64,000 bases of DNA from Minisyncoccota bacterium (GTDB lineage Bacteria > Patescibacteriota > Minisyncoccia > Phycocordibacterales > GWA1-40-21): assembly GCA_041674925.1 (NCBI GenBank), contig JBAYUW010000004.1, positions 482 through 64,481 on the forward strand. The letters are read 5' to 3'. The notes beneath the pieces were generated by a model. The model was not told where the DNA came from. It saw only the letters and a program-made list of their open reading frames with translations, and did no database searches. Positions 1,341 through 64,000 of this stretch are shown one piece after another. Positions within the stretch are counted from its first letter, which is position 1. Each line of letters opens with the position of its first letter. The translations under genes were made by a program, and so were the position numbers.

Positions 1341-2621
1341 CTATTTCTTAATTGGCAGATTGGCTGGTGGCTCGCTTTTCTTGGAAGCAATTTTAGCCAA
1401 AGTTGGAGTGGCCGAGACATTGCCTGGGAAGTGGAAAATTGTAGCTAACTCTTCAGTATTTAATATGAAAGGATTTTGTTTATAATGTTTGTATGGTGGA
1501 AAAAAGAAAGAACGCAGACGATAAGCATTGAACATCTCCTTTCGGTATTTTTCCTGCTGACGATCACGAGCCGGCAATAGAAATGGAAATATGGTACACC
1601 AATCTTTAAAGGCGTCCGAAGTATCAGTATAAAATTTCATTTTAAAACCATTTAAGGTTTGTGAATTGTATTGCCTCATCGAGCCAATCAGACCAGAGAT
1701 ATACGAAGGATTAAAACTTTCTTTTTCTGCTAAATAGAAACCACGAAGCATAGTATCGAAAGACATCTTACCGAGACTTCTTTCGATCGCATTAATTGTC
1801 TCAATCTGACCTTTGGTTGGATTTGGGAAACCAGGAAAATCACCAGTTGTCTTGGGAGTGGCTTCCTCTCTAATTTTATCGATTTCAGCTTTAGCCTCAC
1901 CGGTCCAATCAACTTTCTCTACCAAACGATGATTCTTCAAATCTTCTTTACTATGCATCTTGATTAAAATTTGCATCCAGATTTGATTTCCTTTAGTAGC
2001 TGAACCCAAAAATTCCAAAACTGCCGTCATCGGATCAATTTGGTATCCTTCTTTTTGATCTTTTTCCATACCATAATCAACATAAGTCTTGATGGGATAA
2101 ATATCTTTTTTTAAGAGTTTGAATTGATTACCCCAGATAATGTGTTTGGCTGGATCATAAACAAACTTTTTCACATAATCCTTCTCCGGTGGTACTTCAT
2201 AGATTTCCACGGTCGGATATTGAGCGTAAATTTGGGCCTCAAGAATTTTTTTAAATTTCGGCTCTGATGACCAAATATAAAAATGAACTTGGCCCTCAAT
2301 AGAGACAAGCTCTAATGAAAACCAGCCTTTCACCTTTCCCTGCAAATATGCTTCGGTATAAGTGGCCGCCCCAGTTGCCTGCATGGCACCAAAAATAATC
2401 TCCATCGCCAAAGGAGATTTCAAAATATCTTTAGGAATTCTGATTTCAAATAAAAAAGATTTCAGATTAGAAATATATTTCATCTGAACGTGTCTCACCC
2501 ACAACAAGACAGAAATATAGATTAAAATAAACGGCACAACGACCGGTGAAATCAAAAAAAGCATTCGATAAATCAAGGGCAGGATCTCGGTATTGAATTT
2601 AATTAAAAGATCCAAGAACAT
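1341..2621 (-). CDS. hypothetical membrane-anchored protein
   Basis: 426-aa ORF with N-terminal hydrophobic helices and no motif I recognise. A 2-nt gap to mltG suggests an operon. Confidence 0.5.
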   Translation of the reverse strand: MFLDLLIKFNTEILPLIYRMLFLISPVVVPFILIYISVLLWVRHVQMKYISNLKSFLFEIRIPKDILKSPLAMEIIFGAMQATGAATYTEAYLQGKVKGWFSLELVSIEGQVHFYIWSSEPKFKKILEAQIYAQYPTVEIYEVPPEKDYVKKFVYDPAKHIIWGNQFKLLKKDIYPIKTYVDYGMEKDQKEGYQIDPMTAVLEFLGSATKGNQIWMQILIKMHSKEDLKNHRLVEKVDWTGEAKAEIDKIREEATPKTTGDFPGFPNPTKGQIETINAIERSLGKMSFDTMLRGFYLAEKESFNPSYISGLIGSMRQYNSQTLNGFKMKFYTDTSDAFKDWCTIFPFLLPARDRQQEKYRKEMFNAYRLRSFFFPPYKHYKQNPFILNTEELATIFHFPGNVSATPTLAKIASKKSEPPANLPIKK

Positions 2622-2642
2622 GCATCTATTGTAGCACAGGAG

Positions 2643-17133: not shown

Positions 17134-18105
17134 TTATTTATTAAGCGCTAAGTTAATAAGATGATCTAAAAATTGTGGCAAAGTACAACCGATCGCCATC
17201 ATCGACTGTGGCGTATGCGAATGGCTGGTCATACCTGGTAAGGTATTAGTTTCTAAGATATAAATTCCACGGCGGGGATGGATAATGAAATCTGAACGAG
17301 AATAATGTCTGAGGCCGAGAGCTTTGTGAGCGTTGACGGCCATCTCTTGAATAATTTTCTTTTCTGCTTCAGCAAAATTTCCCGGACACACAACAACTGG
17401 TTCTTCGCTGACATATTTCGCATTGTAGTCATAAAAATCACTACCAGTTGGTTTACGAATTTCATTTGGTAATAAAGCATAGACTTCTTGATTTCGAAAA
17501 TTATCAACCACGCCACAAGTTGCTTCTTTACCAACAATAAATTCCTCGATCAAAGCTGTATCGGAATAATTTAATGCGTCGGTGATGGCTGATTCTAATT
17601 CCATAATAGTTTTAGCGATATTAGTACCAACTGATGAGCCACCATCAACTGGTTTGACCACAACAGGCATGGGGAAAGTTTTAAAGAGTGTGACAGCTAT
17701 ATTTTTTAGATTATCTGTTTTTGAGACAGTAGCATGAAGCGGAGTTTTGAGTTTATTATTCTTATATACTTTTTTTGATAAGACTTTATTCATACCAACA
17801 GCAGAAGCCAAGGCGGTCGAGCCAGTGTAAGGAATATTAAAATAGTCTAAGAGTTTTTGCACAGTACCGTCTTCACCATAAGCACCGTGTAAAGCATTAA
17901 AAATCACATCCACCTTTTTAAAAAGATTTTCTGGTTTAATGGGTACACCTTGATGATGCCAGACGCCAGCTTTATCAATCAAAATATCCAGTACTTCATA
18001 TTTCTCGGGCAGTAAATTATCAATCACCGATTTACCAGTTTTTAGTGAGACTTCGTATTCGGTCGATGGACCACCCCGCAAAACTCCCACGCGTTTTTTT
18101 GACAT
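17134..18105 (-). CDS. ddl: D-alanine--D-alanine ligase
   Basis: 323 aa with VLRGGPSTEYEVSLKTG, HGAYGEDGTVQKLLDYFNIPYTGS and an ATP-grasp C-terminal LETNTLPGMT. Confidence 0.9.
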   Translation of the reverse strand: MSKKRVGVLRGGPSTEYEVSLKTGKSVIDNLLPEKYEVLDILIDKAGVWHHQGVPIKPENLFKKVDVIFNALHGAYGEDGTVQKLLDYFNIPYTGSTALASAVGMNKVLSKKVYKNNKLKTPLHATVSKTDNLKNIAVTLFKTFPMPVVVKPVDGGSSVGTNIAKTIMELESAITDALNYSDTALIEEFIVGKEATCGVVDNFRNQEVYALLPNEIRKPTGSDFYDYNAKYVSEEPVVVCPGNFAEAEKKIIQEMAVNAHKALGLRHYSRSDFIIHPRRGIYILETNTLPGMTSHSHTPQSMMAIGCTLPQFLDHLINLALNK

Positions 18106-18111
18106 AAAGAA

Positions 18112-18120
18112 ATTATACCA
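18112..18120 (-). promoter_or_regulatory. extended -10 box TGgTATAAT, 6 nt before ddl ATG (leaderless-type)
   Basis: Minus strand ttaTGgTATAATttctttATG. Confidence 0.5.
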
Positions 18121-48269: not shown

Positions 48270-48791
48270 TTATTTTGACTCCAAATAAAATCTCCAGAGT
48301 TTTTTCATGTCTCTTCTGGTCAAGGTATCTTCAATATCACTTTTCTTCATCCAGACAAATTTGGCGATGGCCAGTTCCTCCTCTGAAACTTCTTGTTTTT
48401 CTAAGTTTGCTAATTTGGCAAAAACTAAATGATAGTGAGCAAATCTATTGACCTGTTTAACCGTATGATAAAAAAGTCCATGTGAGACACAATTCATCGG
48501 CAGTATTTCAGCAACATTTTTATAACCGGTTTCTTCCAAAATCTCTTTACGCACAGTGTCTTGTAGAGTGTCTCCTGGTTCGATTCCACCCGTTAAAAAT
48601 CCGCACCAACCATTGCTCCATTTTGCAATCAGATACAAGTTTTCCGTCGGATGTTGAATGATTACAGCTATAGGATCACGCTCGACTATACGCACATCTG
48701 GTCGAAAATTATCCAATCCCCCACTTTCGTTTATATCAGCGTCTGGATAAAGCTCCAATATTTTCTCTTTTGTTAAATTTGGTTCCATCAT
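48270..48791 (-). CDS. NUDIX hydrolase
   Basis: NUDIX box GGIEPGDTLQDTVRKEILEETGY. Confidence 0.8.
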   Translation of the reverse strand: MMEPNLTKEKILELYPDADINESGGLDNFRPDVRIVERDPIAVIIQHPTENLYLIAKWSNGWCGFLTGGIEPGDTLQDTVRKEILEETGYKNVAEILPMNCVSHGLFYHTVKQVNRFAHYHLVFAKLANLEKQEVSEEELAIAKFVWMKKSDIEDTLTRRDMKKLWRFYLESK

Positions 48792-48826
48792 CTAACAAAT
48801 ATATCAGAAATGTGCCCAAAGTTCTA

Positions 48827-52629: not shown

Positions 52630-53013
52630 TTATAACTTATACTCCCACCCTGGTTGCCATTTAAAAGTCGAGGATATTAATTTTTCTATTGGAAAAGGTA
52701 CGTTAATCCTCTTTGGTTTTTCCGCTTCCACTTCAGCACTAGGATACTGAGTATAATCTCCATAATTACACTCCCTTAATCTAGCATCTTTTATAATTGG
52801 CCATTTATTACCAAAACCAATCTCGGCACTTTTAACTGCTCGTTGTAAATCAGACACAAAAATTACATCAAAATGATCATTCATATATCTTTCGCCCATT
52901 TCTTTTGATTGTTTTTCTCCTAAAGGTGATAAAGCCACATCATTCCAGCCAGATGATAAATGTGCCTCATTATCAAAAGTTGTCCCGTGAGCTTCAAAAA
53001 TTATCGTCATCAT
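52630..53013 (-). CDS. histidine phosphatase (PGM-like) family protein, short
   Basis: IIFEAHGTTFDN (AHG in place of the canonical RHG), FVSDLQRAVKSAEI, RLRECNYGDY. Only 127 aa. Confidence 0.55.
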   Translation of the reverse strand: MMTIIFEAHGTTFDNEAHLSSGWNDVALSPLGEKQSKEMGERYMNDHFDVIFVSDLQRAVKSAEIGFGNKWPIIKDARLRECNYGDYTQYPSAEVEAEKPKRINVPFPIEKLISSTFKWQPGWEYKL

Positions 53014-53063
53014 CTAGAAAGTATAGCAAAGATTAAAAGTTTTTAACACTTATTAAATTTTAT

Positions 53064-54912: not shown

Positions 54913-56844
54913 CTAAATCCCAGGTTGCGGAATCACTACGCGCTCACGACGCGAAGCGAGACGGGTAAGCTTATCTGAGAGCCGATAAATATAGATCTCG
55001 GGTCCGCCATTATATCGATCCACGCCTGCAACAAAAAACTCGTCACCCACCTTAAACAGAAAGTAGGTCATCCACTTGTAGGGGTGTAGGTGCTCTGTTT
55101 TCTTTTCGCAGAATTCAATAATCTGATCCTGTGTAAAACACAAACGATCAAGATCTACACCAAATCCACTGAAGATCTGCTGGAAAAGGCCATCATTGAT
55201 CATTTCCAGAACATGAACAGGAGTTGCAGGCCTTTCTTCACTCTCAATATCTGTTCCGTAATTGATGAAATCTTCATCAATATATCTAGGAAAAAGGTCT
55301 TTTGCTTTCGCAATCGTCTTTTTTCCGCTAGTAGGTCCAATTGTGATTATCTTACCCTCGGAGACCGAATGAAGATACGGATTTTCCTCTAATGTGTTAT
55401 TGTTTTCCAATCTATTCCTTTCGTCCTCCATTTCTTTTTTCGAGCTAATCATCTTGAGAACACTAATACCATTTTTTGTTGGAATGTACGCATGAGAAGA
55501 ATTACACCACCTCAGATCTGGGATATTAGGATGAGAAATTACTATTGGAATTAGTGGGTGTGGTGGATTAGTTTTGAAATAAAAAGGATTATCTGGAGAT
55601 GCCACTACAGCTTTTTTAAGCACTCCATCCTGCTGATCAAATAGTTTTTTAACTGACTCAATATATCTATTGTAAGTGGCGTTTCCTTCGCTAAAGCCAA
55701 ACATCGGTCTATTAAAATTATCAAAGACAGATAAGGGACTACTCTTATCTCTATCTAAATTCCAAATTCCTCCTTTCTGAACACTTAGACCGAAGCCGTG
55801 TATTAAAAAATTACCATCCTCAATATATGTTTGAAGTTTTTTGTAATCTCCCGGGTCATCAGATACTATTCTATCAATTTCACTTATTTCACCGTTAGGA
55901 CCAATAGAAGAAAATACAGTGTAGCCATAATCTTTTGTGCCATCGGATCTCACGGCCTCTCCAACCTCAGGGTCAAATATCTTCTGCATTAAGATTTTGT
56001 CAGAAAAACTCTCAAAACCTGGACCGTGGTATAGACTCATAACATGAATATTTTCTTTTTTAAAAAAAGAATTTCCTAATATATCGATAATATTTTTCAG
56101 CGTAGAGATTATTTTCCATATATTCTCTTCTAGTTCGTCGAGGCTTTTATTTTTATAACGAACGTAATGATCCGCTTTCAAAATATTGTTTCTAATAAAA
56201 TAGATCATTGTGTGATAATTATCAAAAGACTCAAGAGAATCTATAGAATTTAACTTTCTAAAATTAACAATATCTTCGTCAAGAGAAAAATTTTTATCTA
56301 AATTTTCAATATAAAGTTCTATTATCTCTTTAATTTCATTTATGGATAAAATCTGCGAAAAAATATCATTTATCTCTTTCCATGTCAATTCTTTTCTCAA
56401 ATACCCCTCAACTCCACCGGTCTCCTTAATTAAACGTTCTGGAAATTTAACTAATTTTTCCTTTGGAGTAACCTCTATACCATTTATAATGACTTTATGA
56501 AAAATAGATTCTATCTCATTCGCGCGTATATTAAAAGATTTTCTAATAATATCGGGCATTTCATTACCCATGATGAAGTCTCTATAATAATTACTTAGTG
56601 TATTACTAAAGAATCCGGGGTGCGTTTCACAATATTTATATATATCAAAATGCCTGAAACTATTTCTCTGTAAAAATTCTCTTATAAATTCTGCTTTTAC
56701 CTCATCTGGAGGAACATATTCATCAAATATTTTGGAATACTCCCATTTGGTTTTATCTTGCTGATTAATGAAATCGTCATACATTTGATTTGGATCCAGA
56801 ATATCACACTCCTCTTGTTTATTTTCTATTTTGAATGATTCCAT
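54913..56844 (-). CDS. large orphan cytoplasmic protein, 643 aa
   Basis: Uninterrupted 1.9-kb ORF with no signal peptide and no motif I recognise. Leaderless-type TGcTATATT box. Confidence 0.6.
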   Translation of the reverse strand: MESFKIENKQEECDILDPNQMYDDFINQQDKTKWEYSKIFDEYVPPDEVKAEFIREFLQRNSFRHFDIYKYCETHPGFFSNTLSNYYRDFIMGNEMPDIIRKSFNIRANEIESIFHKVIINGIEVTPKEKLVKFPERLIKETGGVEGYLRKELTWKEINDIFSQILSINEIKEIIELYIENLDKNFSLDEDIVNFRKLNSIDSLESFDNYHTMIYFIRNNILKADHYVRYKNKSLDELEENIWKIISTLKNIIDILGNSFFKKENIHVMSLYHGPGFESFSDKILMQKIFDPEVGEAVRSDGTKDYGYTVFSSIGPNGEISEIDRIVSDDPGDYKKLQTYIEDGNFLIHGFGLSVQKGGIWNLDRDKSSPLSVFDNFNRPMFGFSEGNATYNRYIESVKKLFDQQDGVLKKAVVASPDNPFYFKTNPPHPLIPIVISHPNIPDLRWCNSSHAYIPTKNGISVLKMISSKKEMEDERNRLENNNTLEENPYLHSVSEGKIITIGPTSGKKTIAKAKDLFPRYIDEDFINYGTDIESEERPATPVHVLEMINDGLFQQIFSGFGVDLDRLCFTQDQIIEFCEKKTEHLHPYKWMTYFLFKVGDEFFVAGVDRYNGGPEIYIYRLSDKLTRLASRRERVVIPQPGI

Positions 56845-56850
56845 ATTAAA

Positions 56851-56859
56851 AATATAGCA
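56851..56859 (-). promoter_or_regulatory. extended -10 box TGcTATATT, 6 nt before ATG
   Basis: Minus strand tttGcTATATTtttaatATG. Confidence 0.5.
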
Positions 56860-57072
56860 AATTATTGTACTCGAGACAAATTATTGAGAATATGTTGAAA
56901 AGTAAATGTGTATGATTTGGCTAACAAGATTGGTGTGACATAAATAGGATTCCGCCTTTTACCAAAGATAAAAAGTTCGAACCATCAGAATGGGTACCTC
57001 AAAACACCTTTGATTTATAGGGCTGAAACTTTTGCTCCGTGGGTAGGGATCGAACCTACGACCAATCGCTTA

Positions 57073-57653
57073 CATTTTGTCCAAAATTTCTTTTGGTATG
57101 GACTATATCATCATCCTTCATTTTATTGAGTGGGATGTGGGGCGCTTCGCTAGTCATCCTAAAATGACAGCTACTCTCTTGCGAGATAGTCTCTGAACCT
57201 TTACGTCAATCGACGCACTTGGCTGCTGATTGCCCACGACTTTCTTTAAAAAAGATACGTTTGGGTTTCCAGCAATTCACCTCATTTTTCATCCTAAATT
57301 ACTTTAGGAAGCTGCGTAATACCGTCATGTACTTCCATATGACAATTAGAACAGACCAGGACACATTTCTTAATTTCTCTCTCAATTTTTTCCCAAGAAC
57401 GAGTCAAACCCCTCGACGAGAGATCGAAATTTTTCTTCTTTGGATCAATATGATGGAAACTAAGTGCTCTCTGACATTTACTATAGCCACACAAAATACA
57501 CTTATTGCCTTTAGATGTTCTGGCCATCTCACGAAGTTTTCTTCTTCTTCGTTTAACAGCCTCTCGCATATAAACAGCACGGTCGGCATAAGTCCTTGTT
57601 TCTTTTTTGGTATACATATATGAAGTATACCAAGAAAATTAGAACTTCTCAAC
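57073..57653 (-). mobile_element. group I-like intron (~581 nt) with homing-endonuclease ORF
   Basis: 5' exon ends in U and the intron ends in G. AAGGUUCAGAGACUAUC (57185-57201) matches the conserved core of bacterial tRNA group I introns. The HNH ORF occupies the 5' part. Confidence 0.7.
57294..57617 (-). CDS. HNH homing endonuclease, 107 aa (intron-encoded)
   Basis: CILCGY..ALSFHHIDP..(N)..LVCSNCHMEVH: HNH motif with flanking Cys pairs. Basic N-terminus. Confidence 0.8.
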   Translation of the reverse strand: MYTKKETRTYADRAVYMREAVKRRRRKLREMARTSKGNKCILCGYSKCQRALSFHHIDPKKKNFDLSSRGLTRSWEKIEREIKKCVLVCSNCHMEVHDGITQLPKVI

Positions 57654-57773
57654 ACAGGCGATCGCTCTACCGCTGAGCTACCACGGAATATCTATTCAAT
57701 TGTAATGAACAGTGTTCTTGTCAGAACTCTCATATACTAACAGAAAGTCAGAGAAAAATAAAGAGGACAGCGA

Positions 57774-58637
57774 CTAGCGCTTGATTGGCAATTGCAAACA
57801 GAACGTCGAGCCCTTGTTCGGTCCGGGTGATTCGGCCCAGAGTTTACCGCCATGATGCTTGGTGATATTACGAGCGGTGTAGAGACCGAGACCCAAACCT
57901 TCAGTGTCGGCCAAACGTGCACTTTTGGAACGATAAAAATGTTTGAAAATTTTTCGACCATCAAAGAAGCCGAAACCGATGCCGTTATCTTTTATCTTTA
58001 GGGTGATGTATTTTTCTGAAACACCAAACAGAGCGTTGATTTGACCTTCACGTGGAGTGTATTTGAGAGCATTATCGATCAACATATCAACGACAAATTG
58101 TATTTTCGCTTTATCAATTATCACTAACGGTAATTCCCTATCGGAATCAACTGAGAATTTAATATTTTTATCGCGAATCATCGCTGAGTATTTATTCATC
58201 GACGTTGTGACAATTTCTCTCAAAGAGACAGCCTCAAAAGCATACTCCAACCGTCGATCAAACTTGGCGAAACCAACCAAGAGATCCACAATTTCCATCA
58301 GTCTCTCGTTAGCTTTTTCCATCTCCATTAAAAGATCTTTTTTCTCCAATAGAGTTATGTCTTTTTGCAGCATGTTTATCGTCCAGCGAATACCAGTCAG
58401 CGGGGTTCGAAATTTATGAGTAATGATGGTGATAAATTGATCCCGAGCTTTCGTATTTTCAATTTCACGATAAATAAATAACAAAATAATAACGATAATT
58501 AGAATAAGGGATAAAAATAGAATAACTGACTCATCAAGTAGGGCGAGACGAGTATCTTTAAAGAAGTTGATTCCCGTTAAAAAGACTAGGGATAGAGCCA
58601 AGAAAATGACGAACAAAAAACTATAGCTTCTTTTCAT
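57774..58637 (-). CDS. sensor histidine kinase
   Basis: Two TM helices, H-box ITHKFRTPLTGI, N box DNALKYT, G boxes DNGIGF and GLGLGLY. Start set at ATG 58637; the track starts at a TTG at 58658. Confidence 0.8.
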   Translation of the reverse strand: MKRSYSFLFVIFLALSLVFLTGINFFKDTRLALLDESVILFLSLILIIVIILLFIYREIENTKARDQFITIITHKFRTPLTGIRWTINMLQKDITLLEKKDLLMEMEKANERLMEIVDLLVGFAKFDRRLEYAFEAVSLREIVTTSMNKYSAMIRDKNIKFSVDSDRELPLVIIDKAKIQFVVDMLIDNALKYTPREGQINALFGVSEKYITLKIKDNGIGFGFFDGRKIFKHFYRSKSARLADTEGLGLGLYTARNITKHHGGKLWAESPGPNKGSTFCLQLPIKR

Positions 58638-58646
58638 AACTAGTTT

Positions 58647-58652
58647 ATTATA
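58647..58652 (-). promoter_or_regulatory. -10 box TATAAT, 9 nt before the kinase ATG
   Basis: Minus strand tgtatTATAATaaactagttATG. Confidence 0.4.
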
Positions 58653-58670
58653 ATACAAAAGACAGATTTG

Positions 58671-58679
58671 TGCTATAAT
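58671..58679 (+). promoter_or_regulatory. extended -10 box TGcTATAAT, 6 nt before ATG
   Basis: tgTGcTATAATaaacccATG. Confidence 0.5.
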
Positions 58680-58685
58680 AAACCC

Positions 58686-58982
58686 ATGGGATTATACAAT
58701 ATACTTTTCGGTGGTTCATCGAAACCCCGAGTGACAGAAAAAGAATTTAAAAGAACTAAATCAGAATTATACGCTGAGGGTTTTAGTAAAAGAGAACGAT
58801 CAAAAATTGACGAAATCTTTGGAGCTGATTTTAATATGCTCGGAACCGACAATCATCCTCGAGGCTTGGAAAGAGATGAAATAGACGCCCGAATAAAATG
58901 GATGAGGGCAAACAAAAGCAAACACGGCTTTAGTGATAGTGAGATTAGTGAAGTCGAGGCGGCTTTAAAGAAGAGACTCTAA
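58686..58982 (+). CDS. hypothetical protein, 98 aa
   Basis: MGLYNILFGGSSKPR.. Start moved to the ATG behind the extended -10 box. No motif recognised. Confidence 0.45.
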   Translation: MGLYNILFGGSSKPRVTEKEFKRTKSELYAEGFSKRERSKIDEIFGADFNMLGTDNHPRGLERDEIDARIKWMRANKSKHGFSDSEISEVEAALKKRL

Positions 58983-60152
58983 AACCTGCATTGTATCTTT
59001 CGCAATCTGACCCATCTCGTCAGTCTTTCGGACCAGGATTTTTACTTTTGAATCAACTGCTGAAATATCAACATCGATTGATTCACTGTTATCATTTTTT
59101 ATCTTATCTAATTTTACACCCAGACTTTCCAAACCGGAACAAATCTTTTCTCGCATCACAAACGATCGCTCGCCCACAGTGGCGGTGAAAATTAAAGTAT
59201 CTAAACCACCGAGCACAACAAAGTAAGAGCCAATATATTTTTGAAGATGGTAGGCATACATATCGAGAGCTAATTTGGCTTGACTGTTCCCTTCTTTTTC
59301 TAGTTTGATTAAATCGCGAACGTCCGAGCTTTTTCCACTAACGCCAAGTAGGCCACATCTTTTATTCAAATATTCTTTCAATTTTTTGCCTTTTAAGCCG
59401 AGATTATCGGTCAAGAAAGCCAAGACTCCGGGGTCGATATCGCCCGCCCGGGTCGCCATCATCACGCCTTCAAGGGGTGTAAAGCCCATAGAATTTTCCA
59501 CACATTTGCCATCTTTAATTGCCGTCACGCTCACACCGCTACCAATATGGCAGATAATCAAACGACTTGGTAAAACACCGCTTTCTTTTTGTAATTTATT
59601 TAAGACAGACTCGACTGAAATTCCATGATAACCGTATTTTTGAATATTAAATTTTTGTGAATCTTCAAAAGGTAGTCCATAATATTTAGCTTTATCAGGA
59701 ATCGTGTCGTGAAAATCGCTGTCAGATACTCCAACAATCGGAATATTTTTGAAAGTCTTTTTCAGGGTCTTAATCATTTCATAAGTTGGCAGAAGATGTA
59801 GCGGCGCATCGTGCACCATCTTTTTTATTTCTTTTTCATAAGCTTTATCGATAATTTTATCATCTTGGAAATGCTTACCGGGAGCCACGATTCTAATGCC
59901 AACACCGGCAATCTCCTTTTGGTTTATGATAATACCCTTCATGACAAAACCAGACAGAGCGTATTGTAAAGAATGCTCGAATTCTTTTTTGGTTAAAGTC
60001 TTAACCTCTTTCTGATTGTCAAAATAAAGTGTTCCGACATATTCAGCTCTTTCCAAATGCCAAAAACCCAAACACTTTTCTTTGGTATAGATAGCGTATT
60101 TTTCTGATGCACTTCCCCTATTTACAATTAAATATTTTTTTTCCATTGCCAT
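58965..60152 (-). CDS. ackA: acetate kinase
   Basis: 395 aa with VNRGSASEKY, GYHGIS, CHIGSGVS, TATVGE: acetate/propionate kinase motifs. Confidence 0.85.
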   Translation of the reverse strand: MAMEKKYLIVNRGSASEKYAIYTKEKCLGFWHLERAEYVGTLYFDNQKEVKTLTKKEFEHSLQYALSGFVMKGIIINQKEIAGVGIRIVAPGKHFQDDKIIDKAYEKEIKKMVHDAPLHLLPTYEMIKTLKKTFKNIPIVGVSDSDFHDTIPDKAKYYGLPFEDSQKFNIQKYGYHGISVESVLNKLQKESGVLPSRLIICHIGSGVSVTAIKDGKCVENSMGFTPLEGVMMATRAGDIDPGVLAFLTDNLGLKGKKLKEYLNKRCGLLGVSGKSSDVRDLIKLEKEGNSQAKLALDMYAYHLQKYIGSYFVVLGGLDTLIFTATVGERSFVMREKICSGLESLGVKLDKIKNDNSESIDVDISAVDSKVKILVRKTDEMGQIAKDTMQVLESLL

Positions 60153-62515
60153 TTCAAGATCTCTTCTGGATCATCACCAACGCGCATAATATAATCCTTA
60201 TGATCTTTGATTTTATTCTGATAAATTAAGACAAGTCCATTAGCTTTTTCTTGATCGATTACTCCATTTTTGGCCACCTTTTCGATCGCCTCGATGAACA
60301 AGTTGTAACGATCAGTTTTGTTGCGAATATGAAGATCGAGGGGGGTGGTAGTGGAACCACTTTCCATATAACCATGAATCGAGATGCGTCCTAGTTCATT
60401 TACGAATCTGAATAGGGTTTGCTCCAAAGTATCGGGATAGCCGTGGAAATTGAAAATTACTGGTTTATCTTTGGTAAAATATTTTTCGAAATCTGTTTCT
60501 GAAATCTCATTATCATTACCGACTGTGTTTGGTGACAATTCCAAAATATTCACAAAACGAGTTTTGACCATCGGTGCTTCTTTTTTAATCAGATCAATCG
60601 CCGCCAATACTTCATTGACCAGATATTGTCCACAAGCGGCAAAAACCACATCGGGATTTTCATCACTAGCAAATTTCCAAATCGACAAACCATCTTCTAC
60701 TTCTCGTTTTGCTTCTGCAAGATTCAACCACACTGGCTCGATTGTCTTTTCGGCCACTATCACATTTATCTCGTTTTTGGACGCTAGACATTTTTCCATA
60801 ATCAAGACTGATTCTTGAGCATCGGCGGGAAAATACACATTGATAAAATTATGTCCTTTTTGTAATAAACTATCAATAAAACCCGGGTTCTGATGAGAAA
60901 AGCCATTGTGCTCCTGGCGCCAACCGGTGGAAGTCAGAATATAATTGAAGGAAGGAACATCACCACGCCAATCGGTCTTGCGGGCAATCTTTAAAAATTT
61001 AGTGTACTGATCCGCCATACTAGTCACAATCGGTATGAAAGCTTCATAGGAAGTAAAGATCGCAAAACGGCCAGTTAAAATATAACCTTGTGCCAAACCT
61101 TGCAATGATTGCTCGGAAAGCATTTCAATAATTCGGCCATCGCGAGACATGTCTTTGTCCCAATCTTCAATTTTGCCGGCAAAGGAGCGCGTCGTGTTTT
61201 TAAACATATCCTGCAAACGGTTTGAGTAAGTTTCATCAGGAGAAAATAATCTAAAGTTTCTTTTTGATTGATTTAGTTTCACTACTTCAGATAGATACTC
61301 GCCGATTCGTTTCATAGCGCCAATTTTTTCTACACCCGGTTCAGAAATTTTAATTTCAAAATTATCAACCGCGGGCAAAATCAAATCGCGGGCATGATCT
61401 CCTTTTTTAATACCAAAAGTAGTTTGATTATCCCCCATTCTTAGTCCATCTTTTGGCACATTAGCTAGCACATCTGAAGAAAAACCACTCTGTGAATCAA
61501 ATAGTTCTTCAAACTTATAAGACTTGAGCCATTTTTCCACCATTTTCATTTGGCTTTTATCAGTCTTGCTTTCTTTACCGACGACTTGATGCGACAAGGC
61601 ATTACCCTCAATCTTATCGCCACTACCCTCGATTTTTGGTCCAGCTAAATATTTTGGTCCAGTCCAACCCTTTGGAGTTTTCAGAATAATCATCGGGAAA
61701 CGGAAATAGTCATCCAGTTTTCGATTGGGATTCTCTCTGGCTTCTTTTTGAATCTTTCTTATTGAAGCGTAGGCATCGTCCAAAGCCTGGATCATTTTTT
61801 GATAAACTTTATCACCTTTTCCTTCAACGATGATTGGCTCATAACCGTAGCCTTTGAACAAAGATTTCAAATCAGCATTTTTCATGCGACCAAAAATTGT
61901 TGGTCCGGAAATTTTGTAACCATTTAAATGCAAGATTGGAAGCACAGCGCCGTTGACAGCGGGATCAATAAACTTATTTAAATGCCAAGCAGTCGCCGAG
62001 GCGCCAGTTTCATTTTCACCATCACCAACTAAGCAGGTAGCGATTAAATTTGGATTGTCTAAAACAGCACCGTAAGAGGTAGATAAAGAATAGCCAAGCT
62101 CACCTCCCTCTAAAATTACACCGGGGGTCATAGGTGAAGAGTGGCTGGGAAAACCATACGGCCAACTGAAATTTTTGGTAATATAGGCAATACCATTTTC
62201 GGTTAATTTGGCTTCGGGATAATATTTACCAAGCGTGCTTTCCAAAAAAACATTTGATTGGATCGCTGGAAAACCGTGACCAGGACCAAGGACAAACATC
62301 ATCTCGGCGTTGGTCTTAATTATAAGATTATTTAGACAAGCATAGACAAAGTTGATACCCGGACAGGTTCCCCAGTGACCAAGTAAACGCGACTTGATAT
62401 GATCGAAAGTCAGTTTCTCTTTTAATAAAAAATTATCTTGTAAATAGATTTGACCGACCGACAAATAATTTGTGGCACGGACATATTTCTTGATTCGCTC
62501 GACTTGTTCATTCAT
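60128..62515 (-). CDS. xfp: xylulose-5-phosphate/fructose-6-phosphate phosphoketolase
   Basis: ~795 aa. YLQDNFLLKE, GHWGTCPG, EGGELGY, GDGE: XFP signature motifs. Start set at MNEQVERIKKY (62515). Confidence 0.9.
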   Translation of the reverse strand: MNEQVERIKKYVRATNYLSVGQIYLQDNFLLKEKLTFDHIKSRLLGHWGTCPGINFVYACLNNLIIKTNAEMMFVLGPGHGFPAIQSNVFLESTLGKYYPEAKLTENGIAYITKNFSWPYGFPSHSSPMTPGVILEGGELGYSLSTSYGAVLDNPNLIATCLVGDGENETGASATAWHLNKFIDPAVNGAVLPILHLNGYKISGPTIFGRMKNADLKSLFKGYGYEPIIVEGKGDKVYQKMIQALDDAYASIRKIQKEARENPNRKLDDYFRFPMIILKTPKGWTGPKYLAGPKIEGSGDKIEGNALSHQVVGKESKTDKSQMKMVEKWLKSYKFEELFDSQSGFSSDVLANVPKDGLRMGDNQTTFGIKKGDHARDLILPAVDNFEIKISEPGVEKIGAMKRIGEYLSEVVKLNQSKRNFRLFSPDETYSNRLQDMFKNTTRSFAGKIEDWDKDMSRDGRIIEMLSEQSLQGLAQGYILTGRFAIFTSYEAFIPIVTSMADQYTKFLKIARKTDWRGDVPSFNYILTSTGWRQEHNGFSHQNPGFIDSLLQKGHNFINVYFPADAQESVLIMEKCLASKNEINVIVAEKTIEPVWLNLAEAKREVEDGLSIWKFASDENPDVVFAACGQYLVNEVLAAIDLIKKEAPMVKTRFVNILELSPNTVGNDNEISETDFEKYFTKDKPVIFNFHGYPDTLEQTLFRFVNELGRISIHGYMESGSTTTPLDLHIRNKTDRYNLFIEAIEKVAKNGVIDQEKANGLVLIYQNKIKDHKDYIMRVGDDPEEILKWQWKKNI

Positions 62516-62534
62516 GGCGATAATTATATCATAG

Positions 62535-62543
62535 TGATATAAT
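62535..62543 (+). promoter_or_regulatory. extended -10 box TGaTATAAT, 6 nt before ATG
   Basis: agTGaTATAATatatccATG. Confidence 0.5.
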
Positions 62544-62549
62544 ATATCC

Positions 62550-63122
62550 ATGCTTAAAGAAACTACACCAACCAAGCAAATTAATACTCAAAACGTGACG
62601 GGTTTACATCTAGAAATCTTTGGTGATTTTTCTTTGATTCGTGGAGATGTTAAAAATATTAAAGGAAATTTGAGTTTACATAAAATCACTGGTGACGTTT
62701 CAAATATCAGTGGAGATATTCAAGGTGTGTCTGGTGATGTTACAAAATCCCGAGGCGATGTGACGGATATTATTGGTGATGTTTCAAACATCCGCGGACT
62801 TATTTCTCCCATTGCCGGCGATATTAGTGGAATTATTGGCGATGTATCTAATATTTCTGGCGATGTTAGCAATATCCGCGGTAATGTTAGTAAAATTTCT
62901 GGCGACACTTCCAATATTATCGGCAGTGTCAGTGATTTATCTGGCGACGTCAGTCGGTTGAAAGGTAATGTTACCGGACTCAAAGGTTTTGTCAGTAATC
63001 TTTCTGGCCTAGCTACAAATATTAAAGGCGATGTCACAAATGTGTACGGCGATGTCACCGGTCTCGAAGGCGACGCGACGGGGCTGTCTGGGGATGTGAG
63101 GGAGTTGTTGGGCAAGAAATAG
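62550..63122 (+). CDS. heptad-repeat (GDVSNIx)n protein, 190 aa
   Basis: After a 24-aa head, 23 consecutive 7-residue units G-[DNS]-[VI]-[ST]-x-[IL]-x. No signal peptide. Confidence 0.6.
   Translation: MLKETTPTKQINTQNVTGLHLEIFGDFSLIRGDVKNIKGNLSLHKITGDVSNISGDIQGVSGDVTKSRGDVTDIIGDVSNIRGLISPIAGDISGIIGDVSNISGDVSNIRGNVSKISGDTSNIIGSVSDLSGDVSRLKGNVTGLKGFVSNLSGLATNIKGDVTNVYGDVTGLEGDATGLSGDVRELLGKK
62622..63110 (+). repeat. imperfect 21-nt tandem repeat array (coding, in frame)
   Basis: Units such as GGTGATGTTTCAAATATCAGT / GGCGATGTTAGCAATATCCGC. Codons vary while the peptide pattern is kept. Confidence 0.8.
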
Positions 63123-63182
63123 TTGGGCTTCTCTGGGCTAAGCCTTGCTTTTGGCCTTATTTTACTGTATATTTATGGACTA

Positions 63183-64000
63183 ATGGAAATTCGAAACATT
63201 GCAATTATCGCCCATGTGGACCATGGGAAAACCACCCTGACCGACGCTATTATGAAGCAAACGGGTGCGGGAGAAGAAGGGGTCTCGATGGACTCAAACA
63301 AACTCGAACAAGAGCGTGGTATTACTATTTATGCCAAAAATACTTCGATCTATTATAAAGGCACAAAGATAAACATCGTGGACACCCCGGGTCACGCCGA
63401 TTTTGGTTCAGAAGTTGAACGAGTATTAAGATCTATTGATACGGTTTTATTAGTTGTGGATGCTCAAGAAGGTCCTATGCCTCAGACTCGTTTTGTTTTG
63501 AAAAAATCTTTGGAGCTTGGTTTAAAACCAATTGTTGTAATTAATAAAATTGATAAAAGTGCCGCGCGTCCAGCTGAAGCACATGAAGAAGTTTTGGAAT
63601 TATTCATGGAATTAGGTGCAAACAATGAACAACTCGACTTCCCTACTATTTATGCTATTGGCCGAAAGGGTGTAGCAATGAAAAATCTATCCGACGAACA
63701 AAAAGATTTAACGCCATTGTTAGATTTAATTCTAGAAAAAGTTCCCGCCGCCGCCACAGTCGAACAAACCAGCTCGCCTTTAACCGCCCAAATTTTCAAT
63801 CTTGGTTATGACAATTTCATGGGCCGCCTAGCGATTGCCAGAATTTATAATGGAAAAATAAAAAGTGGTCAAAGAATTTTTGCTAAAACTCCAACGGGTG
63901 AGTCTCGAGCTTTTAAGATCACTAAACTTTTCACTTTTGAAGGAGTAGCTAAAAAAGAAATCACCGAAGCGGAAGCTGGCGATATTGTTATGTTTGCTGG
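63183..64000 (+). CDS. typA: translational GTPase TypA/BipA, N-terminal part (runs off right edge)
   Basis: Own translation: MEIRNIAIIAHVDHGKTTLTDAIMKQTG.., DTPGHADFG, NKID. Confidence 0.9.
   Translation, partial: MEIRNIAIIAHVDHGKTTLTDAIMKQTGAGEEGVSMDSNKLEQERGITIYAKNTSIYYKGTKINIVDTPGHADFGSEVERVLRSIDTVLLVVDAQEGPMPQTRFVLKKSLELGLKPIVVINKIDKSAARPAEAHEEVLELFMELGANNEQLDFPTIYAIGRKGVAMKNLSDEQKDLTPLLDLILEKVPAAATVEQTSSPLTAQIFNLGYDNFMGRLAIARIYNGKIKSGQRIFAKTPTGESRAFKITKLFTFEGVAKKEITEAEAGDIVMFA

What the first reader, a model, noticed from the sequence alone, without database searches (positions are those of the whole stretch)
62550..63122. Protein built from 23 consecutive GDVSNIx heptads, expressed from a leaderless-type promoter
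After the 24-aa head MLKETTPTKQINTQNVTGLHLEIF, the ORF is an uninterrupted run of 7-residue units: GDFSLIR GDVKNIK .. GDVSNIS GDIQGVS GDVTKSR GDVTDII GDVSNIR .. GDVTGLE GDATGLS GDVRELL.

The DNA repeat is imperfect, with codons varied, so the periodicity is maintained at the protein level rather than by recent slippage. A strict G-D-V-x-x-[IL]-x heptad is not the hexapeptide, pentapeptide or bactofilin pattern I know. It suggests a beta-solenoid with 7-residue or 21-residue turns.

There is no signal peptide. The gene is transcribed divergently from xfp. The antisense 131-aa track ORF is a mirror artefact of the repeat.
Basis: seen in the sequence. Interest (0 to 1): 0.6.

Follow-up and report, generated by a model that had tools for sequence, protein, structure and literature searches.

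The report
Glycine-marked heptad-repeat rod protein, leaderless
A small, conserved gene of an ultra-small (Patescibacteria/CPR) bacterium encodes a protein made almost wholly of 23 seven-residue G-D-V-S-N-I-x units; it belongs to a large unnamed family common in phages, and most likely forms a three-stranded coiled-coil rod rather than a beta-solenoid, though the fold is not settled.

Summary
The ORF (62550-63122, +, 190 aa) is real and under purifying selection (dN/dS 0.11-0.23). It has colinear orthologues in nine Patescibacteria genomes. It holds 23 units, each starting with Gly: 22 heptads and one conserved 9-residue unit, so the run is not uninterrupted.

The leaderless promoter is supported. 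TGnTAnnnT lies 6-7 nt before the ATG in 9 of 10 loci. The arrangement is common in this genome (12 sites against 2.7 expected), so it is not special to this gene.

The fold is unresolved:
- **For a coiled coil.** The hydrophobic positions (V at 3, I/L at 6) fall at coiled-coil a/d spacing. All solved-structure matches are alpha coiled coils, mostly trimeric fibres. AlphaFold2 without an alignment gives one long helix (pLDDT 89). The same heptad forms the post-neck stalk of trimeric autotransporters.
- **Against.** Gly occurs in every unit. Position 5 is Gly or Asn in 59% of family units. Pro is frequent in the 8-residue variant units. AlphaFold2 with a 42-sequence alignment collapses (pLDDT 56).

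My estimates are about 0.5 for a trimeric coiled-coil rod and about 0.25 for a beta-solenoid. No curated family covers it and the cellular function is unknown. The conserved unit number suggests a length-constrained structural rod.

The parts
62535..62543 (+). Extended -10 promoter element TGaTATAAT. Its last base is 6 nt before the A of the ATG, so the predicted transcript is leaderless.
   Evidence: Read. No Shine-Dalgarno motif lies between it and the ATG. The same TGnTAnnnT lies 6 nt before the ATG (7 nt in L014) in orthologous loci L010-L014 and L016-L018. The pattern TGNTANNNTNNNNNNATG occurs 12 times in the window against 2.7 expected.
62550..63122 (+). Coding sequence of the 190-aa heptad-repeat protein, stop codon included.
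   Evidence: ORF list. dN/dS is 0.11-0.23 against orthologues. Colinear orthologues of 188-193 aa occur in Patescibacteria genomes.
62550..62621 (+). N-terminal head, residues 1-24, with the conserved motif Q-x-N-T-x-N-V-T-G-L-H-x-x-I. The invariant His20 sits where V sits in later units, that is, in the first core position.
   Evidence: Invariant N12 and H20 and nearly invariant Q10, V16, G18 and L19 in alignment A2. A G-x-H-x-x-[IL]-x-G-D first unit recurs across distant and phage-borne homologues.
62622..62663 (+). Units 1-2 (GDFSLIR GDVKNIK), residues 25-38. Phe27 is invariant.
62664..62690 (+). The 9-residue unit GNLSLHKIT (residues 39-47), which is a heptad plus 2 residues. It is the only discontinuity in the array.
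   Evidence: It is conserved in 7 of the 8 orthologues aligned, as G-[ND]-[LIV]-[STD]-[LIQ]-[HS]-[KR]-I-x; L017 has deleted it. The single-sequence AlphaFold2 model breaks its helix at residues 41-42. In trimeric coiled coils a 2-residue insertion forms a beta-layer (PMC4786415).
62691..63110 (+). Twenty consecutive in-register heptads, residues 48-187, consensus G-D-V-S-N-I-x.
   Evidence: The family consensus over 973 heptads is G100 / D66 N17 / V68 / S58 T30 / G36 N23 / I52 L42 / variable, in percent by position.
63111..63122 (+). C-terminal GKK and the stop codon.
   Evidence: Orthologues end in LLKK, ILKNN, ELIK, QMV or QLIS, so the terminal Lys is not conserved.
63135..63167 (+). Terminator-like hairpin followed by a T-rich tail, between the ORF and typA (whose ATG is at 63183).
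   Evidence: Consensus scan. This is a weak pattern match only: 1 site found against 0.8 expected.
62513..62531 (-). The divergent xfp start: an extended -10 TGATATAAT, then 7 nt, then the xfp ATG at 62515-62513. The two promoters lie back to back in a 34-bp intergenic space that holds a 17-bp tandem duplication.
   Evidence: Promoter scan, minus strand, 10/12 matches with TG. TRF array at 62512-62548. Sequence. xfp identity by Pfam.
62720..63115 (-). Antisense 131-aa ORF. It is not a gene but a mirror artefact of the repeat.
   Evidence: The frame is interrupted by 1-5 stops in the orthologues and its dN/dS is higher than in the sense frame. Antisense ORFs of 100 aa or more appear in only 3 of 9 orthologous loci.

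Best explanation
The gene encodes a cytoplasmic fibrous protein with no signal peptide. Its 23 Gly-initiated units most likely fold as a parallel, probably three-stranded, alpha-helical coiled-coil rod about 20-25 nm long.

In this reading each heptad position has a role:
- V (position 3) and I/L (position 6) are the a and d core positions.
- D (position 2) is at g, and can pair with R/K/S at e of the neighbouring helix.
- G, S/T and N/G (positions 1, 4 and 5, i.e. f, b and c) make an outer face of very small residues.
- The invariant His20 and Phe27 form the first core layers.
- The conserved 9-residue unit (39-47) is a heptad plus 2 residues. That is the kind of insertion that makes a beta-layer in trimeric coiled coils.

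The gene is transcribed from an extended -10 promoter as a leaderless mRNA, as are many genes of this genome.

The number of units is kept at 23 while the sequence has diverged to about 50% identity. I therefore infer a length-constrained structural role (spacer, ruler or scaffold).

Shown: the gene, its conservation, its periodicity, the promoter geometry, and the exclusive similarity to coiled coils. Inferred: the helical fold, the trimeric state and the structural role.
For: **Core spacing and periodicity**
- Hydrophobic residues lie at positions 3 and 6 of every unit, a 3/4 spacing.
- The strongest hydrophobicity harmonic is at period 3.5.

**Similarity to solved and known coiled coils**
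- phmmer and a profile of the orthologues match only alpha-helical coiled coils in the PDB. Most are trimeric fibres: tail needle gp26 4lin (1.3e-8), SlaB 8qox, cavin HR1, reovirus sigma1, SadA fragments, fibritin and Lpp.
- Pfam LPP scores 33.9 bits, above its cut-off of 29.1. All other Pfam and PHROG hits are coiled-coil or fibre families.
- G-x-V-x-x-L-x heptads occur in solved proteins. Hia has GQVNNLE GKVNKVG after its neck. T4-type fibritin has GNISSLQ GDVQALQ before its foldon. That these particular segments are helical is from my own knowledge of those structures.
- A trimeric autotransporter (P0137) has 8 consecutive G[DN]VTTLQ heptads directly after its neck, where the stalk coiled coil begins. 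P0218 shows the same arrangement.
- The exhaustive search also finds arrays with Gly in every heptad but classical helix-forming residues elsewhere, such as GELAEVK x13, GDIARLQ x8 and GEVANLK.

**Structure prediction**
- AlphaFold2 without an alignment gives two helices, 14-40 and 43-188. Mean pLDDT is 89.4, and 94-98 across the central heptads. The helix breaks at the nonad.

**Discontinuities in homologues**
- The commonest is a regular alternation of 7- and 8-residue units, a 15-residue period. Coiled-coil theory allows this as 15/4.
- 9- and 6-residue units are the beta-layer cases of the same theory (PMC4786415).

**Length constraint**
- Eight of nine orthologues are 188-193 aa and align without gaps.
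Against: - **Invariant Gly.** Gly is invariant at what would be the most exposed position (f). Coiled-coil theory gives no reason for that.
- **Turn-type residues at position 5.** Across 973 family heptads, position 5 is Gly 36%, Asn 23% and Asp 7%, the residues typical of left-handed turn conformations. Position 4 is Ser/Thr 88%.
- **Poor helix propensity.** The array is 18% Gly. Its mean helix penalty is 0.60 kcal/mol per residue.
- **Proline in variant units.** The 8-residue variant units carry Pro at position 5 in 36% of cases. One relative (P0202) has GDIDPFx x18, which cannot be a helix.
- **The helix prediction is not robust.** AlphaFold2 with a 42-sequence alignment gave pLDDT 56 and almost no secondary structure. 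Foldseek found no PDB match for that model.
- **No evidence on state or function.** Nothing here bears directly on oligomeric state, cellular location or function. Apart from adjacency to xfp in 6 of the 11 loci compared (window included), the gene neighbourhood is not informative.
Confidence: 0.5

Rival explanations
1. Beta-solenoid. In each heptad, Phi-x-G-[DN]-Phi forms a 5-residue strand with I/L, G and V pointing inward. [ST]-[GND] forms a 2-residue arc with its second residue in a left-handed conformation. Rungs of 14, 21 or 28 residues stack into a rod, possibly capped by the His-containing first unit and, in phage relatives, by a C-terminal motif.
For: - I, G and V alternate at i, i+2 and i+4, as inward residues of a strand do.
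- Gly is invariant.
- Position 5 is 66% G/N/D and position 4 is 88% S/T. Both are typical of beta-arcs (the arc preferences come from my knowledge of beta-solenoid surveys).
- Extra residues fall between position 3 and the next position 6, where an arc would be, and are often Pro, as in G-x-I-N-P-x-L-x.
- GDIDPFx arrays exist.
- Homologues carry cap-like motifs at both ends.
- The composition resembles the Lolium heptad beta-roll.
- AlphaFold2 with an alignment abandons the helix.
Against: - No 14- or 21-residue super-period. Unit similarity at a lag of 3 units is not raised (shuffle p = 0.74).
- No match to hexapeptide, pentapeptide, bactofilin or any other solenoid family or structure, even at E <= 10.
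- Neither AlphaFold2 run produced a solenoid. By my general knowledge, the method usually recovers intrachain solenoids.
- The same heptad sits in the coiled-coil stalk position of trimeric autotransporters.
Confidence: 0.25
2. An intertwined trimeric beta fibre, such as a triple-stranded beta-helix of the phage T4 gp5C type. One unit per chain would form one face of a triangular prism.
For: - The local motif Phi-x-G-[DN]-Phi is the same as in the gp5C octads V-x-G-[DN]-x-x-x-x, for example VKGNVKVV and VEGNGTIL.
- The 8-residue variant units G-x-Phi-x-x-x-L-x fit the octad exactly.
- Many family members are phage-encoded.
- A monomer AlphaFold2 run cannot build an intertwined trimer and would give a low-confidence coil, as was seen.
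Against: - The period is 7, not 8. With 7 residues, V3 and I6 cannot both face inward in a regular strand.
- The phage homologues are small proteins among early or accessory genes, not in tail modules.
- No sequence match to any beta-helix spike was found.
Confidence: 0.1
3. A largely disordered or conditionally folded low-complexity protein, for example a stress protectant or a protein that folds on binding. A related possibility is a multi-core precursor of a modified peptide (RiPP).
For: - Low helix propensity and a low-confidence AlphaFold2 model with an alignment.
- JGI names two homologues YjbJ/CsbD-like.
- There is a weak NCBIfam hit to the repeat RiPP precursor TigB, 27.5 bits.
Against: - Strong position-specific purifying selection, with unit-for-unit orthology.
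- CsbD scores 13.5 bits against a cut-off of 40. TigB scores 27.5 against 70.
- No radical-SAM or other modifying enzyme lies nearby. The neighbours are xfp, ackA, typA and a histidine kinase.
Confidence: 0.1
4. The minus-strand 131-aa ORF (62720-63115) is the real gene.
For: It is open in the window. Antisense ORFs of at least 100 aa also occur in 3 orthologous loci.
Against: - The same frame has 1-5 stops in the orthologues.
- Its dN/dS is higher than in the sense frame.
- The plus-strand ORF has a conserved start, promoter and length.
Confidence: 0.01

Closest known systems
Trimeric coiled-coil fibres of phages and surface proteins: P22-type tail needle gp26, T4 fibritin, stalks of trimeric autotransporter adhesins (Hia, SadA), archaeal SlaB
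   Same: They share the heptad x-[DN/x]-[VI]-[ST]-x-[LI]-x, with beta-branched core residues and small polar outer residues. Gly at f occurs in some of their heptads. They are the best and only solved-structure matches. The autotransporter P0137 has 8 consecutive G[DN]VTTLQ units after its neck.
   Different: Here Gly is in every one of 23 units, and Gly/Asn is common at c. There is no head, neck, anchor, foldon or signal peptide. The protein is only 190 aa and is cytoplasmic by sequence. Helix propensity is lower than in all the solved examples compared.
Braun's lipoprotein Lpp (Pfam PF04728)
   Same: Lpp has heptads S-D-V-Q-T-L-N and N-D-V-N-A-M-R. It is a trimeric coiled coil that acts as a spacer of fixed length (my own knowledge). 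The score is above Pfam's cut-off, 33.9 against 29.1.
   Different: The match covers only 30 residues (44-73). The window protein has no signal peptide, lipobox or Cys. The C-terminal Lys is not conserved among orthologues. The NCBIfam Lpp model scores 17.5 against a cut-off of 108.
Alpha/beta coiled coils with beta-layers (Hartmann et al. 2016, PMC4786415)
   Same: A 9-residue unit embedded in heptads (residues 39-47) is conserved in 7 of the 8 orthologues aligned. In homologues, 6- and 9-residue units interrupt the heptads.
   Different: The sequence of the nonad (GNLSLHKIT) is unlike the MATKDD/IENKADKAD motifs in that paper. Formation of a beta-layer is inferred, not shown.
Lolium perenne ice-binding protein (x-x-N-x-V-x-G heptads; beta-roll with two heptads per turn)
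   Same: It is the one heptad-based beta-solenoid I know of. It has Gly every 7th residue, a hydrophobic residue two positions before the Gly, and a similar Gly/Ser/Asn-rich composition (the sequence and structure are from memory).
   Different: It has one hydrophobic residue per heptad rather than two. No sequence match to it appears in the PDB searches. The window protein has no 14-residue super-period.
Phage T4 gp5 C-terminal triple-stranded beta-helix (V-x-G-x-x-x-x-x octads)
   Same: It shares the motif Phi-x-G-[DN]-Phi.
   Different: Its period is 8, not 7. It is part of a large tail-spike protein. No detectable sequence relationship was found.
Hexapeptide (left-handed beta-helix), pentapeptide and bactofilin repeats
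   Same: Short repeats built around an aliphatic residue next to Gly or Asp/Asn; rod-like solenoids.
   Different: Their periods are 6, 5 and about 6x3. There are no Pfam hits even at E <= 10.

Membership tests
Alpha-helical (trimeric) coiled coil | Heptad periodicity with hydrophobic residues at a and d | tested here: met
   V/I/A at position 3 and I/L/V at position 6 in 21 of 22 heptads. Family-wide, V68 and I52+L42 percent. The period-3.5 harmonic is the strongest.
Alpha-helical (trimeric) coiled coil | Alpha-helical secondary structure along the repeat | tested here: inconclusive
   AlphaFold2 on the single sequence gives helices 14-40 and 43-188 at pLDDT 89.4. AlphaFold2 with a 42-sequence alignment gives pLDDT 56 and almost no helix.
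Alpha-helical (trimeric) coiled coil | Helix-compatible composition | tested here: not met
   18% Gly and a mean helix penalty of 0.60, against 0.40-0.48 for solved coiled-coil segments. Position 5 is G36/N23 percent, and Pro fills position 5 in 36% of the 8-residue units.
Alpha-helical (trimeric) coiled coil | Discontinuities of the kinds coiled coils tolerate (+3, +4, +1 spread as 15/4; +2 or +6 as beta-layers) | tested here: inconclusive
   Unit lengths in 130 homologues: 7 (973), 8 (85, often alternating with 7 to give a 15-residue period), 6 (19), 9 (6), 10 (7), 11 (7). The rules are from PMC4786415. The lengths fit, but the Pro in the 8-residue units does not.
Alpha-helical (trimeric) coiled coil | Parallel homotrimer | not testable with these tools
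   No multimer prediction was available. Inferred from beta-branched a/d residues (Harbury rules, my own knowledge) and from the mostly trimeric nature of the PDB matches.
Lpp (Pfam PF04728 / NCBIfam PRK15396) | Score above the curated cut-off | tested here: inconclusive
   Pfam 33.9 against 29.1: met. NCBIfam 17.5 against 108: not met.
Lpp (Pfam PF04728 / NCBIfam PRK15396) | Signal peptide with lipobox Cys; C-terminal Lys for attachment to peptidoglycan | tested here: not met
   The N-terminus MLKETTPTKQ... is hydrophilic and the protein has no Cys. The terminal Lys is not conserved.
Trimeric autotransporter adhesin | C-terminal YadA-type membrane anchor, neck motifs, signal peptide | tested here: not met
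   None is present in the 190-aa protein. Only the stalk-type heptad is shared.
Hexapeptide / pentapeptide / bactofilin beta-solenoids | Repeat of 6, 5 or about 18 residues matching the Pfam models | tested here: not met
   The period is 7. No such family appears among Pfam hits at E <= 10.
Heptad beta-roll (Lolium ice-binding protein type) | Coils of 14-15 residues, one inward Val per heptad, an Asn ladder | tested here: not met
   No 14-residue super-period. There are two hydrophobic residues per heptad. No PDB sequence match. The definition of the family is from memory.
CsbD/YjbJ (the name JGI gives to homologues P0004 and P0045) | Match to PF05532 above its cut-off | tested here: not met
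   13.5 bits against a cut-off of 40.
TigB-type repeat RiPP precursor | Match above the cut-off and a neighbouring radical-SAM maturase | tested here: not met
   27.5 bits against a cut-off of 70. The neighbours are xfp, ackA, typA and a histidine kinase.
Leaderless gene | A -10 element about 6-7 nt before the start codon, no Shine-Dalgarno motif, conserved in orthologues | tested here: met
   The transcription start itself cannot be tested with these tools.

The most novel reading that the evidence does not exclude
The G-[DN]-V-[ST]-[GN]-[IL]-x unit is the building block of a beta-solenoid class not yet described. Each side or half-turn would have 7 residues, with strand Phi-x-G-D-Phi and arc [ST]-[GN]. 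The class would have its own N-terminal His cap and, in phage members, a C-terminal L-D-x-C-x-I-T-x-E-E-R-x-x-G-I-x-I-x-D-L cap. It would be widespread in phages and in CPR and DPANN organisms. A variant of this reading is that the Gly/Ser outer face of a coiled coil drives side-by-side assembly into a cytoskeletal filament in ultra-small bacteria.
Probability: 0.25. Interest if true: 0.75.

Novelty: new variant of a known kind. Interest (0 to 1): 0.45.

Why it matters
The repeat defines a large family without a name. An exhaustive search found 2842 cluster representatives at E <= 1e-3 and 378 at E <= 1e-10. Of the 130 best hits not already found by the first two searches, 63 carry runs of at least 5 Gly-marked heptads. 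No Pfam, NCBIfam or PADLOC model describes the family, and its PHROG matches are generic fibre families.

It appears in three settings:
- a conserved, probably well-expressed core gene in Patescibacteria;
- many small phage proteins;
- long arrays in giant proteins.

If it is a coiled coil, it shows that arrays with Gly in every heptad are a natural class, and it offers a candidate structural element for cells with almost no known cytoskeleton. If it is a solenoid, it is a new repeat fold. Either result would be cheap to obtain, by CD, SEC-MALS or a trimer prediction.

Tried and rejected
- **Locus scans with an alignment.** Scanning genome and viral collections with an 18-sequence alignment failed because no stretch was conserved enough. 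The single protein worked instead.
- **AlphaFold2 on the clean orthologue alignment.** The substitute alignment of 42 database homologues is gappy (772 columns, 11% mean column identity), which may itself explain the poor model.
- **Structure comparison.** The afdb50 library was not available. Foldseek against PDB and BFVD with either model was uninformative.
- **Literature.** Searches for the motif strings and for 'heptapeptide repeat' with 'beta-solenoid' found nothing relevant.
- **Defence systems.** PADLOC gave no hit for the protein or seven homologues.
- **Gene neighbourhood as a guide to function.**
  - Adjacency to xfp-ackA is kept in the window and in L011-L014 and L017, in two orientations.
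  - It is absent from L015, L016 and L018.
  - The relatives are close (xfp 72-85% identical), so the linkage may be mere ancestry.
- **DNA-mimic idea.** Rejected: the pI is 5.1 and family pI values range from 4.1 to 9.9.
- **Family names.** Membership of LPP and the CsbD and TigB names were rejected on defining features (see the membership tests).
- **A 21-residue turn.** No super-period was found.
Full report
**1. The observation**

Gly occupies residues 25, 32 and 39, then every seventh residue from 48 to 188. That gives 23 units, but the third (GNLSLHKIT) has nine residues. The array is therefore 22 heptads plus one nonad, not an uninterrupted run.

Residue autocorrelation is 0.50 at lag 7 and 0.45-0.50 at its multiples. 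It is 0.01-0.13 elsewhere. At the DNA level the repeat is degenerate: Tandem Repeats Finder sees only two short period-21 arrays with 65-82% matches. The neighbours are as stated. Phosphoketolase (XFP_N, XFP, XFP_C) is transcribed divergently, followed by acetate kinase. A TypA/BipA-type GTPase lies downstream on the same strand.

**2. It is a real, old gene**

A scan of species-representative genomes found ten related loci. Nine of them, all in Patescibacteria (CPR) assemblies, hold orthologues. The tenth, L019, holds a different type of heptad gene (see section 8).

- The eight orthologues aligned are 47-78% identical to the window protein; the ninth, L013, is nearly identical to L012. Eight of the nine are 188-193 aa long.
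- They align unit for unit without gaps, and the nonad is kept. Only L017 differs: it has lost about seven units in frame.
- Against these orthologues dN/dS is 0.11-0.23, and synonymous sites are close to saturation.

The antisense 131-aa ORF shares its wobble positions with the sense frame, which is why it stays open. In the orthologues that frame carries 1-5 stops and its dN/dS is higher.

The array is therefore maintained at protein level and its unit number is nearly fixed. It is not a contingency-type variable repeat.

**3. The promoter**

TGATATAAT lies at 62535-62543. Six bases then separate it from the ATG, and there is no Shine-Dalgarno motif.

- The same TGnTAnnnT lies six bases before the ATG in the window and in L010, L011, L012, L013, L016, L017 and L018. 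In L014 the gap is seven bases. Only L015 lacks it.
- xfp has the mirror arrangement on the other strand: TGATATAAT, seven bases, then its ATG at 62515. The two promoters lie back to back in 34 bp.
- The pattern TGNTANNNTNNNNNNATG occurs 12 times in the window against 2.7 expected; none of 100 shuffles reached 12.
- Thirteen of 57 long ORFs have a TAnnnT exactly six bases before their first ATG. Only 10 have a Shine-Dalgarno-like motif.

The leaderless reading is well supported, but it is how this genome starts many transcription units. It is not special to this gene.

**4. A large unnamed family**

- The word-indexed search gave 58 relatives, and 146 when a profile of the orthologues was used. 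None has an informative name.
- The exhaustive search gave 2842 cluster representatives at E <= 1e-3 and 378 at E <= 1e-10.
- Of the 130 best hits that the first two searches had not already found, 63 have runs of at least five Gly-marked heptads. Examples are proteins of more than 1000 residues with runs of up to 29 consecutive units (P0131) or several arrays (P0132).

Many short members sit in phage-like contigs or phage genomes, among small early or accessory genes.

Typical members begin with a motif such as Y-Y-x-x-D-G-x-K-I-x-G-x-H-x-N-I-x-G-D, in which a His takes the place of the first core Val. The window protein has the related N-V-T-G-L-H-x-E-I-F-G-D-F, with His20 invariant. Many phage members end with G-[DN]-L-D-x-C-x-[IL]-T-x-x-[DE]-R-x-x-G-[IV]-x-I-x-D-L; the CPR orthologues do not.

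The repeat is combined with many unrelated small domains, including zinc ribbons, a FYVE-like finger, DUF7296, a trypsin-like protease and lipoprotein signals. No Pfam, NCBIfam or PADLOC family describes it, and its PHROG matches are generic fibre families.

**5. The fold: evidence for a coiled coil**

- V at position 3 and I/L at position 6 are spaced 3 and 4 residues apart.
- Every solved structure matched by the protein or by the orthologue profile is an alpha-helical coiled coil, and most are trimeric fibres. They are a P22-type tail needle (4lin, 1.3e-8), archaeal SlaB (8qox), cavin HR1, reovirus sigma1, SadA fragments, fibritin and Lpp.
- G-x-V-x-x-L-x heptads are present in Hia right after the neck (GQVNNLE GKVNKVG) and in T4-type fibritin just before the foldon (GNISSLQ GDVQALQ). 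From my knowledge of those structures, both segments are helical.
- A trimeric autotransporter found by the exhaustive search (P0137) has 8 consecutive G[DN]VTTLQ units directly after its neck, exactly where stalk coiled coils begin.
- The same Gly-marked frame also occurs with classical helix formers, as in GELAEVK x13 and GDIARLQ x8.
- AlphaFold2 on the single sequence gives helices 14-40 and 43-188 with pLDDT 89. The only break is at the nonad.
- Coiled-coil theory (PMC4786415) accommodates the commonest discontinuity in homologues. That is a regular alternation of 7- and 8-residue units, giving 15 residues over 4 turns. The theory predicts a beta-layer for a 2-residue insertion in a trimer, which is what the conserved nonad would be.

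**6. The fold: evidence against a coiled coil**

- Gly is invariant at what would be the most exposed position.
- Over 973 family heptads the consensus by position, in percent, is G100 / D66 N17 / V68 / S58 T30 / G36 N23 D7 / I52 L42 / variable. The family thus averages 1.36 Gly per heptad, and position 5 is filled with the residues that favour left-handed turn conformations.
- The 8-residue units read G-x-[IVL]-[SND]-P(36%)-x-L-x. One relative has GDIDPFx eighteen times. Neither can be a regular helix.
- The mean helix penalty of the array (0.60 kcal/mol per residue) is worse than for four solved coiled-coil segments (0.40-0.48).
- With a 42-sequence alignment, AlphaFold2 dropped to pLDDT 56 with almost no secondary structure, and that model matched nothing in the PDB. 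The alignment was poor, which weakens this point.

A self-consistent solenoid reading exists. Phi-x-G-[DN]-Phi would be a strand with I, G and V pointing inward, and [ST]-[GN] would be a two-residue arc. Insertions would fall in the arc.

Against the solenoid: there is no 14- or 21-residue super-period, no similarity to any solenoid family, and no solenoid in either prediction.

A triple-stranded beta-helix like T4 gp5C shares the local motif Phi-x-G-[DN]-Phi. Its period is 8, however, and with 7 residues the two hydrophobic positions cannot both face inward.

**7. Judgement**

My estimates are:

| Reading | Probability |
|---|---|
| Parallel, probably trimeric, coiled-coil rod of the phage-fibre / autotransporter-stalk type, with a possible beta-layer at residues 39-47 | about 0.5 |
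| Beta-solenoid | about 0.25 |
| Intertwined beta fibre | about 0.1 |
| Disordered or conditionally folded protein (includes RiPP precursor) | about 0.1 |

On function there is no direct evidence. The points that bear on it are:

- There is no signal peptide, no membrane segment and no catalytic domain.
- There is no conserved functional partner. The xfp-ackA adjacency holds in six of the eleven loci compared (window included), in two orientations, but among close relatives.
- The promoter is strong.
- Unit number is conserved despite about 50% sequence divergence.

These features fit a structural rod whose length matters (a spacer, ruler or scaffold), which is how Lpp works. The protein is not a member of the Lpp family: it lacks the signal peptide, lipobox and conserved terminal Lys.

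**8. Novelty and other observations**

This is a new variant of a known kind of protein, in a family that has no description. The unexplained core is why Gly is kept in every unit.

Things seen on the way:
- a group I intron with no recognisable host gene;
- a contig with at least eight tandem paralogous heptad-repeat genes;
- phage members with Cys instead of Val in every unit.

Noticed in passing
window 57080-57340 (-): A complete group I intron match (Rfam RF00028, 79 bits, model positions 1-253). No tRNA was found in 56500-58900, no rRNA match appears anywhere in the window, and the flanking ORFs have no Pfam match. The host gene of the intron is therefore unclear.
   Followed up: partly
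whole window, e.g. 2619-2636(-), 18103-18120(-), 48789-48806(-), 53011-53028(-), 56842-56859(-): Leaderless gene starts look like the norm in this genome. TGnTAnnnT followed by 6 nt and ATG occurs 12 times against 2.7 expected. Only 10 of 57 long ORFs have a Shine-Dalgarno-like motif.
   Followed up: partly
window 62512-62548: A 17-bp tandem duplication (TCATAGCGATATAATATA, 2.1 copies) makes up the 34-bp xfp/heptad-gene intergenic space. It supplies the -10 regions of the two back-to-back promoters, which lie on opposite strands; the plus-strand TGATATAAT lies in its second copy.
   Followed up: partly
L019 3200-11600 (DYJL01000023.1, labelled as a Nitrospira japonica MAG): A tandem array of at least eight paralogous heptad-repeat genes. 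Each starts M-S-K/E-E-R-K-L-I-N-x-x-N-L-x-G-D-x-x-x-I-W-G. The one checked has a classical Shine-Dalgarno motif (aaggaggtg) rather than a leaderless start.
   Followed up: no
L007 3926-4327 (phage MW202691.1); also P0135, P0010, P0188, P0258: Family members in which the core Val is replaced by Cys in nearly every unit (GDCSSLR GDCTGLS ...). That gives a ladder of a dozen or more Cys residues.
   Followed up: no
P0202 (996 aa): Eighteen consecutive GDIDPFx heptads with Pro in every unit. This variant of the same frame cannot be alpha-helical.
   Followed up: no
C-termini of P0002, P0009, P0017, P0031, P0037, P0099, P0117, P0139, P0142: A recurrent motif of about 22 residues, G-[DN]-[LI]-D-x-C-x-[IL]-T-x-x-[DE]-R-x-x-G-[IV]-x-I-x-D-L-[IV], closes the repeat array in phage-borne members. 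It is absent from the CPR orthologues and has no Pfam match. It might be a cap or a trimerisation knob.
   Followed up: partly
L012 and L013 compared with window 58965-63122: In two orthologous loci the heptad gene is followed co-directionally by xfp and ackA. In the window it faces them divergently. Adjacency has thus survived an inversion.
   Followed up: partly
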